This document shows, in pieces, positions 36,644 to 44,207 of a stretch of 64,000 bases of DNA (position 1 is its first letter; every line of letters begins with the position of its first letter). The notes below the pieces were generated by a model. It saw only the letters and a list, made by a program, of their open reading frames with translations. It was not told the DNA's origin and did not search any database. Source of the stretch: Mobula hypostoma (lineage: Eukaryota); contig NC_086108.1 in assembly GCF_963921235.1 (NCBI RefSeq), positions 4,898,001-4,962,000 of the forward strand. The letters run 5' to 3'. The translations under genes were made by a program, and so were the position numbers.

Positions 36644-36841
36644 TGTACTGTATGGCCTACAGTATAATAAGGGACTACTTTATGTTGTAGGGACACGTCG
36701 TTGCATGCACCATTAGGCACGTATTAATCTGTACATGTGTGCTGAGTTTGGGTTCTGCCAGTAAAGAAACATGAAACTTAGCTCCTGTCTCTGGCGTTTT
36801 TATTAATAGCATTGTTGTGTAACCAGGCCACATACACAACA
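36644..36841 (+). repeat. 5' LTR (198 bp, TG...CA)
   Basis: Direct repeat of 43985-44207, with about 10 substitutions by manual alignment plus one 25-bp indel. Confidence 0.95.
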
Positions 36842-36844
36842 ATT

Positions 36845-36857
36845 TGGCGATGAGGTT
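36845..36857 (+). promoter_or_regulatory. Primer binding site, probably tRNA-Ser(GCT)
   Basis: tggcgatgaggtt lies 3 bp after the LTR, versus TGGCGACGAGGAT expected from the tRNA-Ser(GCT) 3' end (recalled). Confidence 0.75.
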
Positions 36858-37211
36858 AATGAACCTACACCGTATTAGAACGCCGTGTTTTAATTGATAA
36901 CGACACTCGGAAGAAGAGCGCAAGGAACGAGCCAAGGAGCGGGAGAAGGAGGCAGAGAGAGTCCACGAGTCTGAAAGAAAGCGGGTGCACATGCGGGAGA
37001 CCAAGAGACACAGTCGGAGCCACGGCACGTCCAGCCGAGACCACAGCCGGCGCTGACTCCCAGGGGCTGAGGATCTGCCTGCCTCAGAAGGGAGATAAAA
37101 AGGAGCAACACACACACATCTAGATGGAGTATGCTCGTGGCGCTAGCAGAAAGGACACGCGAGTCAAAAAGGAAAATAAGGGGAGAACAGGGCTAAATTA
37201 ACATAACAAAG

Positions 37212-37933
37212 ATGGTGATGATTGGAACCATTACAGCATTTGATAGTGGCATTGAAGACTGGGCAACTTACATTGAAAGAGTGGAGTTATATTGTGAGGC
37301 TAACGGTGTTAAGGATGAAAAGATAGCCAGCGTCTTACTCAGTATTATGGGAGCAAAAACATACGGCCTGCTACGGAGCTTGTTAACCCCTGAAAAGCCA
37401 GCTGACAAAATGTTCAAGCAAATAGTAGGCACTCTCCAACAGCATTTAAACCCCAAACCACTGGTCATTGCTGAAAGATTTAAATTTTATAATCGGAATC
37501 AGAGCAAAAATGAAAGCATTTCTGAATATTGTGCTGAATTGCGCAAATTATCAGAACATTGTCAGTTTGGAGCTGGTTTAGCGGATGCATTGAGGGACAG
37601 GTTAGTGTGTGGCATGCACTGTGAAACCACACAGAAGAAGCTTCTGTGTGAAAGATACCTTACATTCGAGACCTTACATTGCTAAACATTGTAATATCAA
37701 CAGAAACAGTGGCATTGTGTGCTTCCGAGATACAACAAAAATCTCTGGAATATGCCACTAATAAAATGTCACTGAACAGGAATGAAGGAAAGAAATGTTA
37801 CCGTTGTGGGAACAGGTCACATGTTGGTTTAAAGACAAAGAATGCAGAAACTGTGGCAAACAGGGCCACACTGGCAGAGTATGCAAAGCTAATAAACAGC
37901 AGAAAAAGTACAAAATACAGAGAAACAAGAAAC
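37212..37933 (+). pseudogene. Gypsy gag, frameshifted
   Basis: EDWATYIERV...AERFKFYNRNQSKNESISEYCAELRKLSEHCQFG...LRDRLVCG, and a CCHC knuckle CRNCGKQGHTGRVC at 37843-37884. Confidence 0.9.
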
Positions 37934-38195
37934 GTGTGATGTCGGGCAGTGCAGCGCGGCAGATTTAAAAGGGCAGAAATCCTGCTTCGGGTTTGATTCG
38001 AAGAAGGAAGTCTGAGAGTCTGAGTGGGAGTGCCGAGAAAGACATTTTTGAAATTCTAGTTTTTTTTTCTCCAACGGCATTCAGAGAGGCGGGACTGCGC
38101 AGGCGTGTGACGTCGGGCAGTGCAGCGCGGCAGATTTAAAAGGGCGAGGAAGGTTTGGCATTCATTTTCTGTTGCTATTTGAGGAGAGGGGCATT

Positions 38196-39131
38196 ATGAC
38201 TGTGAGGGCAGTTTGCTGTTCTCGGTGTCGGATGTGGGAGGCCCTGGACGCTCCAAGCCTCCCGGACGTCTACATCTGCGCCAAGTGCATCGAGATGCAG
38301 CTCCTAAGGGACTGCGTTACGGAACTGGAGCTGCAGCTCGATGACCTTCGTCTGGTCAGGGAGAGTGAGGAGGTGATAGAGAGGAGTGGAAGGCAGGTGG
38401 TCACACCGCGGCCACGGGAGGCAGACAAGTGGGTCACGGTTCGGAGGGGGAAGGGGAAGAGTCAGGTAATAGGGAGTACCCCGGTGGCTGTGCCCCTTAA
38501 CAACAGGTACTCCTGTTTGAGTACTGTTGGGGGGGACAGCTTACCCGGGGGAAGCAACAGTGGCCATGCCTCCGGCACAGAGTCTGCCCCTGCAGCTCAG
38601 AAGGGTAGGGCAAGGAAGAGGAGGGCAGTTGTGATAGGGGACTCGATAGTAAGGGGGTCAGATAGGCGATTCTGTGGACGCAGTCCAGAGACCCGGATGG
38701 TAGTTTGCCTCCCTGGTGCCAGGGTCCGGGATATTTCTGATCATGTCCAAGATATCCTGAAGTGGGAGGGTGAGGAGCCAGAGGTCGTGGTACGTATAGG
38801 TACCAATGACATAGGTAGGAAAAGGGAAGAGGTCCTGAAAGGAGAATATAGGGAGCTAGGTAGGGAGTTGAGAAAAAGGACCGCAAAGGTAGTAATCTCG
38901 GGATTACTGCCTGTGCCACGTGACAGTGAGAGTAGGAATGCGATGAGGTGGAAGATAAATGCGTGGCTGAGGGATTGGAGCAGGAGGCAGGGATTCAAGT
39001 TTTTGGATCATTGGGACCTCTTTTGGCGCAGGCGTGACCTGTACGAAAAGGACGGGTTACACTTGAATCATAGGGGGACCAATATCCTGGCAGGAAGATT
39101 AGCGGGGGCTACTGAGGTGACTTTAAACTAG
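38196..39131 (+). CDS. CR1 ORF1p (zinc finger/leucine zipper plus SGNH esterase-like domain), open frame
   Basis: CxxC...CxxC, coiled coil, and VIGDSIVRG, GTND and DGLHLN blocks. Confidence 0.88.
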   Translation: MTVRAVCCSRCRMWEALDAPSLPDVYICAKCIEMQLLRDCVTELELQLDDLRLVRESEEVIERSGRQVVTPRPREADKWVTVRRGKGKSQVIGSTPVAVPLNNRYSCLSTVGGDSLPGGSNSGHASGTESAPAAQKGRARKRRAVVIGDSIVRGSDRRFCGRSPETRMVVCLPGARVRDISDHVQDILKWEGEEPEVVVRIGTNDIGRKREEVLKGEYRELGRELRKRTAKVVISGLLPVPRDSESRNAMRWKINAWLRDWSRRQGFKFLDHWDLFWRRRDLYEKDGLHLNHRGTNILAGRLAGATEVTLN

Positions 39132-39368
39132 AATGGTTGGGGGGTGGGAATCAAATTAAAGAGGCTAGGCGAGAGGAGGTTAGTTCACAACAGGGGGATG
39201 GGAACCAGTGCAGAGAGACAGAGGGGTGTAAAGTGAGGGTAGAAGCAAAAAGTACTAAGGAGAAAAGTAAAAGTGGCAGGCCGACAAATCCAGGGCAAGC
39301 ATTAAAAAGGGCCACTTTTCAACATAATTGTATAAGGGCTAAGAGTTGTAAAAGAGCGCCTGAAGGCT

Positions 39369-42150
39369 TTGTGTGTCAATGCAAGGAGCATTCGTAATAA
39401 GGTGGATGAATTGAAAGTGCAGATTGTTATTAATGATTATGATATAGTTGGGATCACAGAGACATGGCTCCAGGGTGACCAAGGATGGGAGCTCGACGTT
39501 CAGGGATATTCAATATTCAGGAGGGATAGACATGAAGGCAGGGGAGGTGGGGTGGCGTTGCTGGTTAAAGAAGAGATTAACGCAATAGAAAGGAAGGACA
39601 TAAGCCGGGAAGATGTGGAATCGATATGGGTAGAGCTGCATAACACTAAGGGGCAGAAGACGCTGGTGGGAGTTGTGTACAGGCCACCTAACAGTAGTAG
39701 TGAGGTCGGAGATGGTATTAAACAGGAAATTAGAAATGTGTGCAATAAAGGAACAGCAGTTATAATGGGTGACTTCAATCTACATGTAGACTGGGTGAAC
39801 CAAATTGGTAAAGGTGCTGAGGAAGAGGATTTCTTGGAATGTATGCGGGATGGTTTTTTGAACCAACATGTCGAGGAACCAACTAGAGAGCAGGCTATTC
39901 TGGACTGGGTTTTGAGCAATGAGGAAGGGTTAATTAGCAATCTTGTCGTGAGAGGCCCCTTGGGTAAGAGTGACCATAATATGGTGGAATTCTTCATTAA
40001 GATGGAGAGTGACATAGTTAATTCAGAAACAAAGGTTCTGAACTTAAAGAGGGGTAACTTTGAAGGTATGAGACGTGAATTAGCTAAGATAGACTGGCAA
40101 ATGACACTTAAAGGATTGACGGTGGATATGCAATGGCAAGCATTTAAAGGTTGCATGGATGAACTACAACAATTGTTCATCCCAGTTTGGCAAAAGAATA
40201 AATCAAGGAAGGTAGTGTACCCGTGGCTGACAAAAGAAATTAGGGATAGTATCAATTCCAAAGAAGAAGCATACAAATTAGCCAGAAAAAGTGGCTCACC
40301 TGAGGACTGGGAGAAATTCAGAGTTCAGCAGAGGAGGACAAAGGGCTTAAGTAGGAAGGGGAAAAAAGATTATGAGAGAAAACTGGCAGGGAACATAAAA
40401 GCTGACTGTAAAAGCTTTTATAGATATGTAAAAAGGAAAAGACTGGTAAAGACGAATGTAGGTCCCCTACAGACAGAAACAGGTGAATTGATTATGGGGA
40501 GCAAGGACATGGCAGACCAATTGAATAATTACTTTGGTTCTGTCTTCACTAAGGAAGACATAAATAATCTTCCAGAAATAGTAGGGGACAGAGGGTCCAG
40601 TGAGATGGAGGAACTGAGCAAAATACATGTTAGTAGGGAAGTGGTGTTAGGTAAATTGAAGGGATTGAAGGCAGATAAATCCCCAGGGCCAGATGGTCTG
40701 CATCCTAGAGTACTTAAGGAAGTAGCCCAAGAAATAGTGGATGCATTAGTGATAATTTTTCAAAACTCGTTAGATTCTGGACTAGTTCCTGAGGATTGGA
40801 GGGTGGTTAATGTAACCCCACTTTTTAAAAAAGGAGGGAGAGAGAAACCGGGGAATTATAGACCGGTTAGCCTAACGTCGGTGGTGGGGAAACTGCTGGA
40901 GTCAGTTATCAAAGATGTGATAACAGCACATTTGGAAAGCGGTGAAATCATCGGACAAAGTCAGCATGGATTTGTGAAAGGAAAATCATGTCTGACGAAT
41001 CTCAGAATTTTTTGAGGATGTAATTAGTAGAGTGGATAGGGGAGAACCAGTGGATGTGGTATATTTGGATTTTCAAAAGGCTTTTGACAAGGTCCCACAC
41101 AGGAGATTAGTGTGCAAACTTAAAGCACACGGTATTGGGGGTAAGGTATTGATGTGGATGGAGAATTGGTTAGCAGACAGGAAGCAAAGAGTGGGAATAA
41201 ACGGGACCTTTTCAGAATGGCAGGCGGTGACTAGTGGGGTATCGCAAAGCTCAGTGCTGGGGCCCCAGTTGTTTACAATATATATTAATGACTTGGATGA
41301 GGGAATTAAATGCAGCATCTCCAAGTTTGCAGATGACACGAAGCTGGGTGGCAGTGTTAGCTGTGAGGAGGATGCTAAGAGGATGCAGGGTGACTTGGAT
41401 AGGTTGGGTGAGTGGGCAAATTCATGGCAGATGCAATTTAATGTGGATAAATGTCTAGTTATCCACTTTGGTGGCAAAACTAGGAAAACAGATTATTATC
41501 TGAATGTTGGCCGATTAGGAAAAGGGGAGGTGCAACGAGACCTGGGTGTCATTATACACCAGTCATTGAAAGTGGGCATGCAGGTACAGCAGGCGGTGAA
41601 AAAGGCGAATGGTATGCTGGCATTTATAGCGAGAGGATTCGAGTACAGGCTGCAGTTGTACAAGGCCTTGGTGAGACCACACCTGGAGTATTGTTTGCAG
41701 TTTTGGTCCCCTAATCTGAGGAAAGACATCCTTGCCATAGAGGGAGTACAAAGAAGGTTCACCAGATTGATTCCTGGGATGGCAGGACTTTCATATGAAG
41801 AAAGACTGGATGAACTGGGCTTGTACTCGTTGGAATTTAGAAGATTGAGGGGGTATCTGATTGAAACGTATAAAATCCTAAAGGGATTGGACAGGCTAGA
41901 TGCAAGAAGATTGTTCCCGATGTTGGGGAAGTCCAGAACGAGGGGTCACAGTTTGAGGATAAAGGGGAAGCCTTTTAGGACCGAGATTAGGAAAAACTTC
42001 TTCACACAGAGAGTGGTGAATCTGTGGAATTCTCTGCCACAGGAAACAGTTGAGGCCAGTTCATTGGCTATATTTAAGAGGGAGTTAGGTATGGCCCTTG
42101 TGGCTACGGGGATCAGGGGGTATGGAGGGAAGGCTGGGGCGGGGTTCTGA
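39369..42150 (+). pseudogene. CR1 ORF2p (APE endonuclease plus reverse transcriptase) with one frameshift near 41005
   Basis: NARS, GITETW, GDFN, SDH, NYRPVSLTS, DFQKAFD and FADD motifs. The frame breaks at CLTNL/EFFED and PQGS reads SQSS. Confidence 0.93.
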
Positions 42151-42275
42151 GTTGGATGATCAGCCATGATCATAATAAATGGCGGTGCAGGCTCAAAGGG
42201 CTGAATGGCCTACTCCTGCACCTATTTTCTATGTTTCTATGTTTCTAAACCCCAGAAAGGAAAATACAACAATGT

Positions 42276-42700
42276 ATGGAAGAAAGCAGTTCTGATGAAA
42301 ATGACTCAGACGAAAGTGAATTGTTTTGTCTGCAACTTCACAGCATGAAAGAGACAGATGATCGAAGAGTAATAAGGATCACTCCACAAGTGGCAGGCGT
42401 GAGACTGAAAATGGCGTTGGACACAGGCTCAGCTTTAACAGTGATCTCTGTAGACGACTACAAATGACTGTTTTCTCACATAACTCTGAAATGAACTAAA
42501 CTACTGCTAAAGACTTACACAGGACAGAAAGTGCATCCCAAAGGCAAAATTAAAGTGACAGTGACCTAAGGAGACAAAATACAGCAGCTGAACCTCTCTG
42601 TACTGAAAAATGGAGGACGACTGTTGCTGGGGCGGGAATGGCTCAGGAAAATCCAGTTGGATTGGCACACCATCAAGACACTAGATGTGTCAACACAGGA
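42276..42700 (+). pseudogene. Gypsy aspartic protease with in-frame stops
   Basis: LDTGSALTVIS...LKTYTG...LLGREWL in one frame, with stops at 42465, 42492 and 42567. Confidence 0.9.
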
Positions 42701-42719
42701 GGGCAGTTCAGCGGGGAAG

Positions 42720-43626
42720 ATGTCCGCGGCTCTCTTCTCATTCATTGTCGATTATTACAAAGATGAGGAGGAGCTAGACAACATCAACGATGAGGATGAA
42801 TGCAGTATCCGTGGCCGCGACTCGGATGAAGATACAGAAGATGCAAGGGAGACAGATATTGCCAATAAGCAGGATGATGAAGACTACCTGGAAGTAAAAG
42901 AGCAGATGTACCAGGAGAAATTGGCATCTCTCAAAAGACAGCTACAGCAGTTACAGGAAGGCACTTTGTAGGAGTATCAGAAAAGGATGAAGAAACTAGC
43001 TCAACAATACAAGGAAAGAATTCGAAATGCAGAGCTTTTTCTGCAGCTGGAGACGGAACAAGTGGGAAGGAATTATATTAAAGAGAAGAAAGCAGCAGTG
43101 AAGGAATTTGAGGATAAAAAGATTGAGTTAGAAAAAAGAAAAAGATGATTGAGAATGAGAGGTTAACAATGGAACTCACAGGAGATTCTATGGAGGTAAA
43201 GCCAATAATGACCCTGTTCCAATTACAGACAAAAGACGAAAACCTGCACCTGCGCAGTTAAATTACTTGTTAACAGATGAACAGATAATGGAAGATCTGC
43301 GAACTCTCAATAAGCTTAAGTATCCGAAAAGACCAGCATCTCCGTCTGCTCCTGAGCATCTTCCCAGTCCTCCTGCAGAATCACCAGCACAAAGATATGA
43401 AGCACGAATAGAAGATGGAAAGATATATAACGATAAGAGATGGTATCATAAAGGTCAGACTATCTATTTGGATTCTAAGGAGAATACGAAGATTGGCTGT
43501 GTAATTAGCTCATTTAAAACAAATGAGATATGGGTAAGGAAGACAAGCGATAGCACAAAGATGGGAATAAAACTAGGACAGCTGCACAGAGGAGTCTTCA
43601 TTATACGGAGGCGATCTGCTGCCTAG
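42720..43626 (+). pseudogene. SUDS3: Processed (intronless) copy of Sin3 HDAC corepressor complex component SDS3
   Basis: MSAA...[12 protein letters not shown]...[33 protein letters not shown]...[16 protein letters not shown]...[13 protein letters not shown]...[30 protein letters not shown]...[13 protein letters not shown]...IRRRSAA* matches vertebrate SUDS3 as I recall it, from start to stop. It has a TAG at 42969 and two frameshifting deletions (~43130, ~43210). Confidence 0.95.
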
Positions 43627-43716
43627 AATTCTTAGCAAGTTGGAGGCGCACACCTTCTTAACTCCCTATGCTCAAAGGTCAACTTTTCATGACTTCTATA
43701 TGGAAATCTGTATTAA

Positions 43717-43722
43717 AATAAA
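43717..43722 (+). promoter_or_regulatory. Poly(A) signal of the captured SUDS3 3' UTR
   Basis: AATAAA ~90 nt after the stop codon and ~15 nt before retroelement sequence resumes. Confidence 0.6.
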
Positions 43723-43971
43723 CAAGTTTATTGACAGTCATTACCCGGAGAGGCAGAGAAGAACCCCCCCAGAGACTTGAGTTATAAATGGGTCTTAGAC
43801 CAAAAGTTAAAAAAAGGCTTGTTATAATTTGATATTATTATGTTACTTTGTTATGATTTGATATTATTAAGTTACTAAGTAAACAAATGGTAGGTGTTTG
43901 TATATTAAGGATAGACATATTTGTTCAGCATAGTGACCCAGTAAAAAAAACAGTTGATACACTATTAAGAT

Positions 43972-43983
43972 AAAAGGGGAGGA
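43972..43983 (+). promoter_or_regulatory. Polypurine tract
   Basis: aaaaggggagga immediately before the 3' LTR. Confidence 0.88.
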
Positions 43984-43984
43984 C

Positions 43985-44207
43985 AGTACTATATGGCCTA
44001 CAGTATAATAAGAGACTACTTTATGTTGTAGGGACACGTCGTTGCATGCACTATTAGGCACATATTAAGCTTGCGCTATTAGGCGCGTATTAATCTGTAC
44101 GTGTGTGCCGAGTTCGGATTCTGCCAGTAAAGAACCATGAAACTTAGCTCCTGTCTCCGGCGTTTTTATTAATAGCATTGTTGTGTAACCAGGCCACATA
44201 CACAACA
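43985..44207 (+). repeat. 3' LTR (223 bp)
   Basis: Direct repeat of 36644-36841. The first base is A rather than T, and there is an extra 25-bp tandem unit. Confidence 0.95.

What the first reader, a model, noticed from the sequence alone, without database searches (positions are those of the whole stretch)
42276..42971. Captured SDS3 is fused in frame to the retrotransposon protease
Seen in sequence: the protease (42276), the LGREWL segment (42624) and the SUDS3 ATG (42720) share one frame with no stop across the junction (…[27 protein letters not shown]…). The interrupting stops look like point mutations. Inference: the ancestral chimera could express a (Gag-)PR-SDS3 polyprotein with SDS3 in the place of RT, where the element's protease might release it, as in gag-onc fusions. 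SDS3 is a core Sin3/HDAC corepressor subunit (established), so carrying it might alter host silencing, which is speculative. In-frame fusion has a 1-in-3 chance probability, and gag and protease are not in the same frame in this copy.
Basis: partly seen in the sequence, partly recalled or inferred. Interest (0 to 1): 0.72.

Follow-up and report, generated by a model that had tools for sequence, protein, structure and literature searches.

The report
Ray retrotransposon keeps captured genes in-frame
This is one dead copy of a ray jumping-gene family of roughly 330 copies that swapped its copying enzymes for a spliced host SUDS3 message joined in frame to its own gag and protease; the family likely needed that reading frame kept open, but nothing shows that it needed the SUDS3 protein itself.

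Summary
Observation confirmed: protease and SUDS3 share one frame. The window holds a decayed copy (36644-44207, split by a younger CR1 LINE) of a non-autonomous Ty3/gypsy family. In it, a spliced SUDS3 mRNA replaced RT-RNaseH-integrase at a 7-nt microhomology. There are 329 SUDS3-type junction matches (one should be the host gene) against 197 RT-type. The in-frame join is family-wide (103 of 105 copies), and gag and protease share that frame. Copies decayed neutrally after insertion (dN/dS 1.07). SDS3 function shows no selection: conserved residues changed, 8 coiled-coil codons are gone, shared variants are 6 nonsynonymous to 0 synonymous, and 29 of 80 copies lose the C-terminus. The frame itself looks kept: a second capture (YBX1) is also in frame, and 7 of 8 shared length changes are multiples of three, against 63 of 197 private ones. 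One removes the whole protease. Best reading: trans-mobilised cargo, probably selected for an open frame, not for SDS3. The mechanism is known (Tan 2016); the scale and the frame-keeping signal are the addition. The scan noted this family before at other loci.

The parts
36644..36841 (+). 5' LTR (TG...CA), preceded by the AAAAA target-site duplication
   Evidence: 93-94% to the 3' LTR; LTR-LTR distance 0.052; flanks
36844..36856 (+). primer-binding-site-like motif just after the LTR; tRNA not identified
   Evidence: sequence; role inferred from position
37212..37933 (+). gag with Cys/His knuckles, broken by private indels and stops
   Evidence: weak Retrotrans_gag hit, E 0.11, below cut-off; continuous with the protease in other copies
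37934..42246 (+). younger CR1-type LINE inserted in the gag-protease linker (esterase ORF1, endonuclease-RT ORF2, short-repeat tail)
   Evidence: absent from the other copies; GDSL hit; about 96% to other LINE copies
42247..42700 (+). linker and aspartic protease (DTG at 42420), stops at 42465, 42492 and 42567
   Evidence: weak gag-asp_proteas hit, E 0.02, below cut-off; 91-93% to RT-bearing sister copies
42701..42707 (+). 5' switch point: 7-nt microhomology between the element's pol frame and the host SUDS3 5' UTR
   Evidence: RT-bearing copy L201, window, host
42708..42719 (+). rest of the captured SUDS3 5' UTR, read in frame
42720..43626 (+). spliced SUDS3 coding sequence (all 11 introns gone), with the family-wide 24-nt deletion plus a private stop, a frameshift and a deletion
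   Evidence: maps to the 12 host exons at G000:C78:8380638-8439639
43627..43737 (+). captured SUDS3 3' UTR (short junction class); no poly(A) tail; ends at a second microhomology
43738..43984 (+). last codons of the element's pol, 3' tail and polypurine tract (about 43972-43983)
   Evidence: same sequence precedes the 3' LTR in RT-bearing copies
43985..44207 (+). 3' LTR with a 25-nt internal duplication, followed by the AAAAA target-site duplication

Best explanation
A Ty3/gypsy element of a ray has its RT, RNase H and integrase replaced by a spliced host SUDS3 mRNA joined in frame behind gag and protease, likely by template switching at short shared sequences, and the product likely spread to about 330 sites using the enzymes of its RT-bearing sister family. 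Shown: anatomy, switch points, copy counts, one family-wide frame, neutral decay after insertion, and later captures of antisense RNF213 and in-frame YBX1. Inferred: the lineages that kept multiplying were filtered for an open frame running from gag through whatever cargo followed. The likeliest reason is that an early stop would destabilise the RNA or take it out of translation before packaging. SDS3 served as translated filler, not as a corepressor.
For: Host gene with 12 exons; element has all introns removed, no poly(A), microhomology at both ends. RT-bearing sister with the same LTR, gag, protease and tail: 11 of 39 protease-picked copies. No fixed difference separates its gag-PR from the chimeric copies, and LTR ages overlap. 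Exact 5-bp target duplications in 25 of 54 copies. 329 against 197 junction matches, controls 0. Frame-keeping: YBX1 capture in frame in 20 of 28 copies. Length changes of 4 nt or more shared by 3 or more copies are multiples of three in 7 of 8 cases, against 63 of 197 private ones (Fisher p 0.003). With a repeat-phase baseline of 0.45, p is 0.018, or 0.002 with the two UTR junctions. No selection on cargo protein: shared variants are 6 N: 0 S in SDS3 and 8 N: 2 S in YBX1, against 21 N: 23 S in gag-PR (p 0.007).
Against: The frame test is post hoc and rests on few events. Two of the eight (-9, -7) recur across subfamilies and may be slips, and two (-480, -201) sit in the same four copies. In RNF213-bearing classes (29 of 80 copies) the frame ends soon after entering antisense sequence and leaves roughly 0.9-1.7 kb untranslated (my arithmetic), as long as an out-of-frame SUDS3 join would leave; this weakens an RNA-decay explanation. 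Six of 28 YBX1 copies are 1 nt short in one homopolymer run, and five share a 1-nt loss inside YBX1. Three family-wide CpG-type changes in SDS3 are all synonymous (3 of 18 against 0 of 38, p 0.029), a hint of protein-level selection. Ty1 shows no cis-preference for its own RNA (PMC3945221, passages).
Confidence: 0.5

Rival explanations
1. Pure passenger: the same capture and spread in trans, but the frame is a 1-in-3 accident and the later in-frame events are chance plus the codon periodicity of repeats. Only gag and protease were ever under selection, largely in the RT-bearing partners with which the chimeras recombined.
For: 24 of 44 shared gag-PR variants also occur in RT-bearing copies. 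Repeat pairs are in phase 37-50% of the time. Frame-ending RNF213 classes thrived. No selection on cargo residues.
Against: The four cargo-specific deletions and two independent UTR junctions are all in frame (joint p about 0.005-0.007). Shared length changes outside the ORF are multiples of three in only 3 of 15 cases.
Confidence: 0.36
2. One reading: the founder made a Gag-PR-SDS3 polyprotein, and the SDS3 part (coiled coil shortened, Sin3-binding segment kept) interfered with Sin3/HDAC silencing and so helped the burst.
For: Family-wide open frame. The near-complete coding sequence was captured. The chimera outnumbers the RT-bearing family about 1.7 to 1. The three family-wide CpG-type changes are synonymous. 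The R1 and R2 truncations fall just after the segment matching PDB 2N2H (residues 195-219).
Against: Family-wide changes at P187 and S263, unchanged in the shark and ray host proteins that cover those positions, and an 8-codon loss in the 4ZQA dimerisation helix. The 12 synonymous differences fit the 9-13 expected on the host branch alone. Shared variants are 6 N: 0 S. Lineages lacking the protease, or nearly all of SDS3, still multiplied. A protein acting in trans would help all elements, not only its carrier (inference).
Confidence: 0.12
3. Ordinary LINE-made SUDS3 processed pseudogenes that landed in gypsy relics, or segmental duplications of one locus.
For: Rays are LINE-rich, and a vertebrate survey ties retrocopy abundance to non-LTR elements and lists SUDS3 among the top parents in cartilaginous fishes (bioRxiv 10.64898/2026.06.26.734816, passages).
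Against: One shared 5' junction and one shared 24-nt deletion, no poly(A), pol replaced rather than interrupted, and a separate LTR pair and target duplication per copy.
Confidence: 0.02

Closest known systems
LTR-mediated retrocopies of animals (Tan et al. 2016, Genome Res, PMC5131818; passages read)
   Same: Internal ORFs replaced by spliced mRNA, microsimilarity at the switch points (median 6 bp there; 7-11 nt here), no poly(A), multi-gene chimeras, further rounds as non-autonomous elements, often in frame with the parent protein.
   Different: The passages read describe young loci with few insertion sites. Here about 330 copies outnumber the autonomous partner, three host mRNAs were taken up in series, and the frame is continuous with gag-PR across subfamilies.
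Maize Bs1 (known here only from Tan 2016's passages: three host genes in an LTR element, 1-5 copies with shared switch points)
   Same: Serial capture, shared switch points, cargo partly in frame and partly not.
   Different: Vertebrate, far higher copy number, dead copies; no evidence of a retained host function.
TR-GAG non-autonomous LTR elements of plants (search listing only; definition recalled)
   Same: LTR-gag-(protease)-LTR without RT, RNase H or integrase, mobilised in trans.
   Different: Carries host mRNA cargo in place of pol; animal Ty3/gypsy.
gag-onc fusions of acutely transforming retroviruses (recalled)
   Same: Host mRNA fused in frame behind gag, pol lost, helper-dependent.
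   Different: No env seen in the family, germ-line amplification, and the cargo protein shows no selection, whereas oncogene cargo is selected for its function.

Membership tests
Ty3/gypsy LTR retrotransposon | LTRs with TG...CA ends, target-site duplication, PPT | tested here: met
   (25 of 54 exact 5-bp duplications)
Ty3/gypsy LTR retrotransposon | pol order protease-RT-RNase H-integrase | tested here: met
   in the sister copy L105: RVT_1, RT_RNaseH, Integrase_H2C2 and rve in that order; absent from the chimera
Ty3/gypsy, Mag lineage | placement on an RT tree with named elements | not tested
   suggested only by recalled gag motifs and the single gag-pol frame
LTR-mediated retrocopy (Tan 2016) | intron-less host mRNA replacing internal ORFs | tested here: met
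LTR-mediated retrocopy (Tan 2016) | microsimilarity at switch points, no poly(A) | tested here: met
LTR-mediated retrocopy (Tan 2016) | secondary retroposition as a non-autonomous element | tested here: met
LTR-mediated retrocopy (Tan 2016) | co-transcription from the LTR | tested here: inconclusive
   only contigs of runs not on record as RNA
gag-onc-type functional transduction | cargo in frame with gag | tested here: met
gag-onc-type functional transduction | cargo protein under selection for its function | tested here: not met
   low power, and one contrary hint
gag-onc-type functional transduction | fusion protein made and processed | not testable with these tools
   needs protein or ribosome data
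functional retrogene at this locus | intact ORF | tested here: not met
   four stops, frameshifts and a LINE insertion

The most novel reading that the evidence does not exclude
A vertebrate LTR family worked as a serial mRNA-capturing vector whose replicating lineages had to keep one frame open from gag through the cargo, producing Gag-PR-SDS3 and later Gag-PR-SDS3-YBX1 polyproteins. In its founder, a dimerisation-damaged SDS3 that still carried the Sin3-binding segment acted as a stolen dominant-negative of Sin3/HDAC silencing and drove a burst larger than that of the autonomous parent.
Probability: 0.1. Interest if true: 0.85.

Novelty: new variant of a known kind. Interest (0 to 1): 0.5.

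Why it matters
It gives a mechanism for SUDS3 being a top retrocopy parent in cartilaginous fishes. The copies come from one capture amplified by an LTR element, not from repeated LINE retroposition or selective retention as the general model in a recent survey implies. The annotated 'SDS3-like' and 'YBX1-like' genes of Mobula and Hemitrygon examined here carry this family's marks, so gene-family counts in rays are likely inflated. If the frame-keeping signal holds, the family is a natural experiment, with hundreds of copies and several independent rearrangements, on whether a non-autonomous LTR RNA must stay translated through its cargo to be copied.

Tried and rejected
Expression: no RNA holder listed; this is no evidence either way. 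Contigs bridge the junction in 3 of 4 laid runs (X5, X6, X9), which shows presence only; with hundreds of copies, DNA carry-over could give them, and no silent control stretch was laid. A 1134-nt contig in X6 seemed to join protease to an undeleted SUDS3. I rejected it as a likely assembly mosaic: a second run of the same organism has the host message with its own 5' UTR plus separate element-type contigs. A protease stop shared by 67% of 43 aligned copies looked inherited. I rejected that: it occurs in 32 of 73 pattern-picked chimeric and 6 of 19 RT-bearing copies (p 0.44) and is linked to no gag-PR variant, so it is recurrent mutation at a hypermutable site. The 950-bp insert was first taken for a retained SUDS3 intron; it is antisense RNF213. 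The first 7-to-1 indel count was distorted by the coordinate copy's own indels and was redone. A gag-PR tree is star-like and does not separate chimeric from RT-bearing copies. The protein search among longer proteins showed no full gag-PR-SDS3 product among the 120 listed of 499 hits; only P0008 and P0011 carry the junction. Polarising the synonymous differences failed for lack of outgroup DNA, except nt 9, where host-type contigs of two other coded organisms show no difference from the host. No structure or complex prediction was run. Literature: searches and a term search of a manta-genome preprint found no description of this element; bioRxiv supplements were not seen and could hold SUDS3 copy lists.

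Full report
Observation. Read from 42276, the window gives a linker, the protease motif LDTGS, LLGREWL and then MSAAL... of SUDS3 in a single frame. Stops lie at 42465, 42492, 42567 and 42969, with none across the join. The surroundings are an LTR element. LTRs lie at 36644-36841 and 43985-44207, with AAAAA on both flanks; gag starts at 37212; and a younger CR1-type LINE at 37934-42246 is missing from other copies. The host is a ray: its SDS3 equals the Mobula birostris protein apart from an alternative-splice insert.

What it is. A junction search returned 621 candidates, and all 40 scored matched across the whole junction. Junction patterns with up to two mismatches give 329 SUDS3-type places (one should be the host gene) and 197 RT-type places; reversed controls give 0. 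Of 39 copies picked by protease similarity, 28 continue into SUDS3 and 11 into RT. A sister copy has RT, RNase H and integrase in gypsy order. The parent gene is at G000:C78:8380638-8439639, with 12 exons, and the element lacks all 11 introns. The 5' switch lies in the host 5' UTR at a 7-nt sequence shared with the element's pol. The 3' switch lies in the 3' UTR, in two classes (nt 113 or about 342), joined to the last codons of pol with no poly(A). Copies have their own target duplications (25 of 54 exact 5-bp matches). Median LTR-LTR distances are 0.116 (37 chimeric), 0.104 (9 with RNF213) and 0.098 (8 RT-bearing). Gag-PR of the two kinds shows no fixed difference and a star-like tree. These features match the template-switch model of Tan et al. 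2016 (passages read), with spread in trans alongside the autonomous partner (inferred). Annotated 'SDS3-like' proteins of Mobula carry the same 8-codon deletion, and a Hemitrygon 'YBX1-like' protein carries gag, the junction, YBX1 and the RNF213 tail. The family therefore occurs in two ray families; I have no measured rate for an age.

Is the frame ancestral? Yes, by counts on real copies. The last 30 nt before the ATG are unchanged in length in 103 of 105 copies. The protease Asp-to-ATG distance is a multiple of three in 68 of 99 (63 at the modal 300 nt). The modal gag-ATG-to-Asp distance is 906 nt (printed as 907 from an anchor one base early; 13 of 73). In 70 aligned copies one phase of gag-PR has no majority stop. 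The one majority stop seen in 43 longer copies is as common in RT-bearing copies and is recurrent. After insertion the SDS3 part decayed neutrally: dN/dS 1.07, 112 stops against 126 expected, and only 5 of 97 copies free of stops and frameshifts in codons 1-220 (108 copies examined).

Did SDS3 protein matter? Family-wide differences from the host are 12 synonymous and 2 nonsynonymous changes (P187 and S263, unchanged in the shark and ray host proteins that cover them). There is also a 71% variant at S43 and a 24-nt deletion inside the dimerisation helix solved as 4ZQA (the dimerisation role is from PMC8800102, passages). The host branch alone should supply about 9-13 synonymous changes, so nothing is left to show purifying selection. 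Shared non-CpG variants are 6 N: 0 S in SDS3 and 8 N: 2 S in YBX1, but 21 N: 23 S in gag-PR (p 0.0003 against neutral at a 12% threshold, 0.098 at 18%; 24 of 44 also occur in RT-bearing copies). Of 80 pattern-picked copies, 45 have full SDS3, 26 have it cut by antisense RNF213, 3 have it cut at codon 127 by YBX1, and 6 are otherwise cut short. One hint points the other way: three family-wide CpG-type changes are all synonymous (3 of 18 against 0 of 38, p 0.029). They are unpolarised except nt 9, which looks element-side.

Did the frame matter? This is what the follow-up adds. YBX1 exons 1-7 were captured through its 5' UTR and lie in frame with SDS3 in 20 of 28 copies, 19 at the modal spacing. 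Among 142 copies, length changes of 4 nt or more shared by three or more copies are -24, -57, -480, -201, +15, +45, -9 and -7. Seven of the eight are multiples of three, against 63 of 197 private changes and 3 of 15 shared changes outside the ORF. Repeats in this coding DNA are in phase 37-50% of the time. At 0.45, p is 0.018 for the eight, and about 0.005 for the four cargo-specific deletions plus the two UTR junctions. The -480 and -201 lineage (4 copies) lost the whole protease and nearly all of SDS3 yet stayed in frame, which points to the frame rather than to either protein. Against: the test is post hoc; -9 and -7 may be recurrent slips; six YBX1 copies are one base short in a homopolymer run; and the RNF213 classes end the frame early, leaving up to about 1.7 kb untranslated. 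The reason for frame-keeping is inferred, not shown. RNA stability or translation before packaging is my best guess. A Ty1 paper suggests that some translation is needed for RNA stability but reports no cis-preference (PMC3945221, passages).

Expression. No RNA holder was listed. Contigs bridge the junction in three coded organisms, which shows presence only, and the one striking contig was a likely mosaic.

Comparison and verdict. It works like, and meets the tested features of, an LTR-mediated retrocopy acting as a non-autonomous element. It resembles gag-onc fusions in layout but fails the test of selected cargo. I found no published description. A 2026 survey lists SUDS3 among the top retrocopy parents of cartilaginous fishes and ties retrocopy abundance in general to non-LTR elements (supplements not seen). 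The scan has already noted this family at several other loci; those notes agree with my reading and were not used as support. New variant of a known kind; interest 0.5. Without a consensus-based branch test, the founder's exact coding state rests on the column counts above.

Noticed in passing
L032:340-1320 and about a third of the copies: Antisense RNF213 RING-region fragment inside SDS3 in two junction classes. R1 leaves at nt 677 and returns at nt 668 between short repeats; R2 leaves at nt 698 and loses the SDS3 C-terminus. The fragment reads as one 127-aa stretch, so it is likely spliced; the host RNF213 gene was not located.
   Followed up: partly
L221-L249; host gene at G000:C75 near 3.285-3.305 Mb: 28 copies carry spliced YBX1 exons 1-7 in sense, joined through an 11-nt microhomology in its 5' UTR, in frame with SDS3 and ending in the RNF213 fragment. 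Hemitrygon P0008 has the same order of parts.
   Followed up: yes
   Followed up: partly
G000:C78:8398854-8395736: Host SUDS3 intron 7 has AT-AC ends (minor-spliceosome type); it is cleanly removed in the element.
   Followed up: partly
window 37934-42246: Near-full-length CR1-type LINE with an esterase-domain ORF1 and a short duplication of its 5' end (37933-37974 and 38104-38145).
   Followed up: partly
run X5 on window 42800-43150: Contig depth in the thousands over the SDS3 5' half, and a loose end at 43092 resembling the YBX1 junction; possibly capture data or a strongly expanded subfamily in that organism.
   Followed up: no
window 43985-44207 and many copies: LTRs come in two lengths differing by a 25-nt duplication; some copies, this one included, have one of each, suggesting recombination between co-packaged RNAs.
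   Followed up: no
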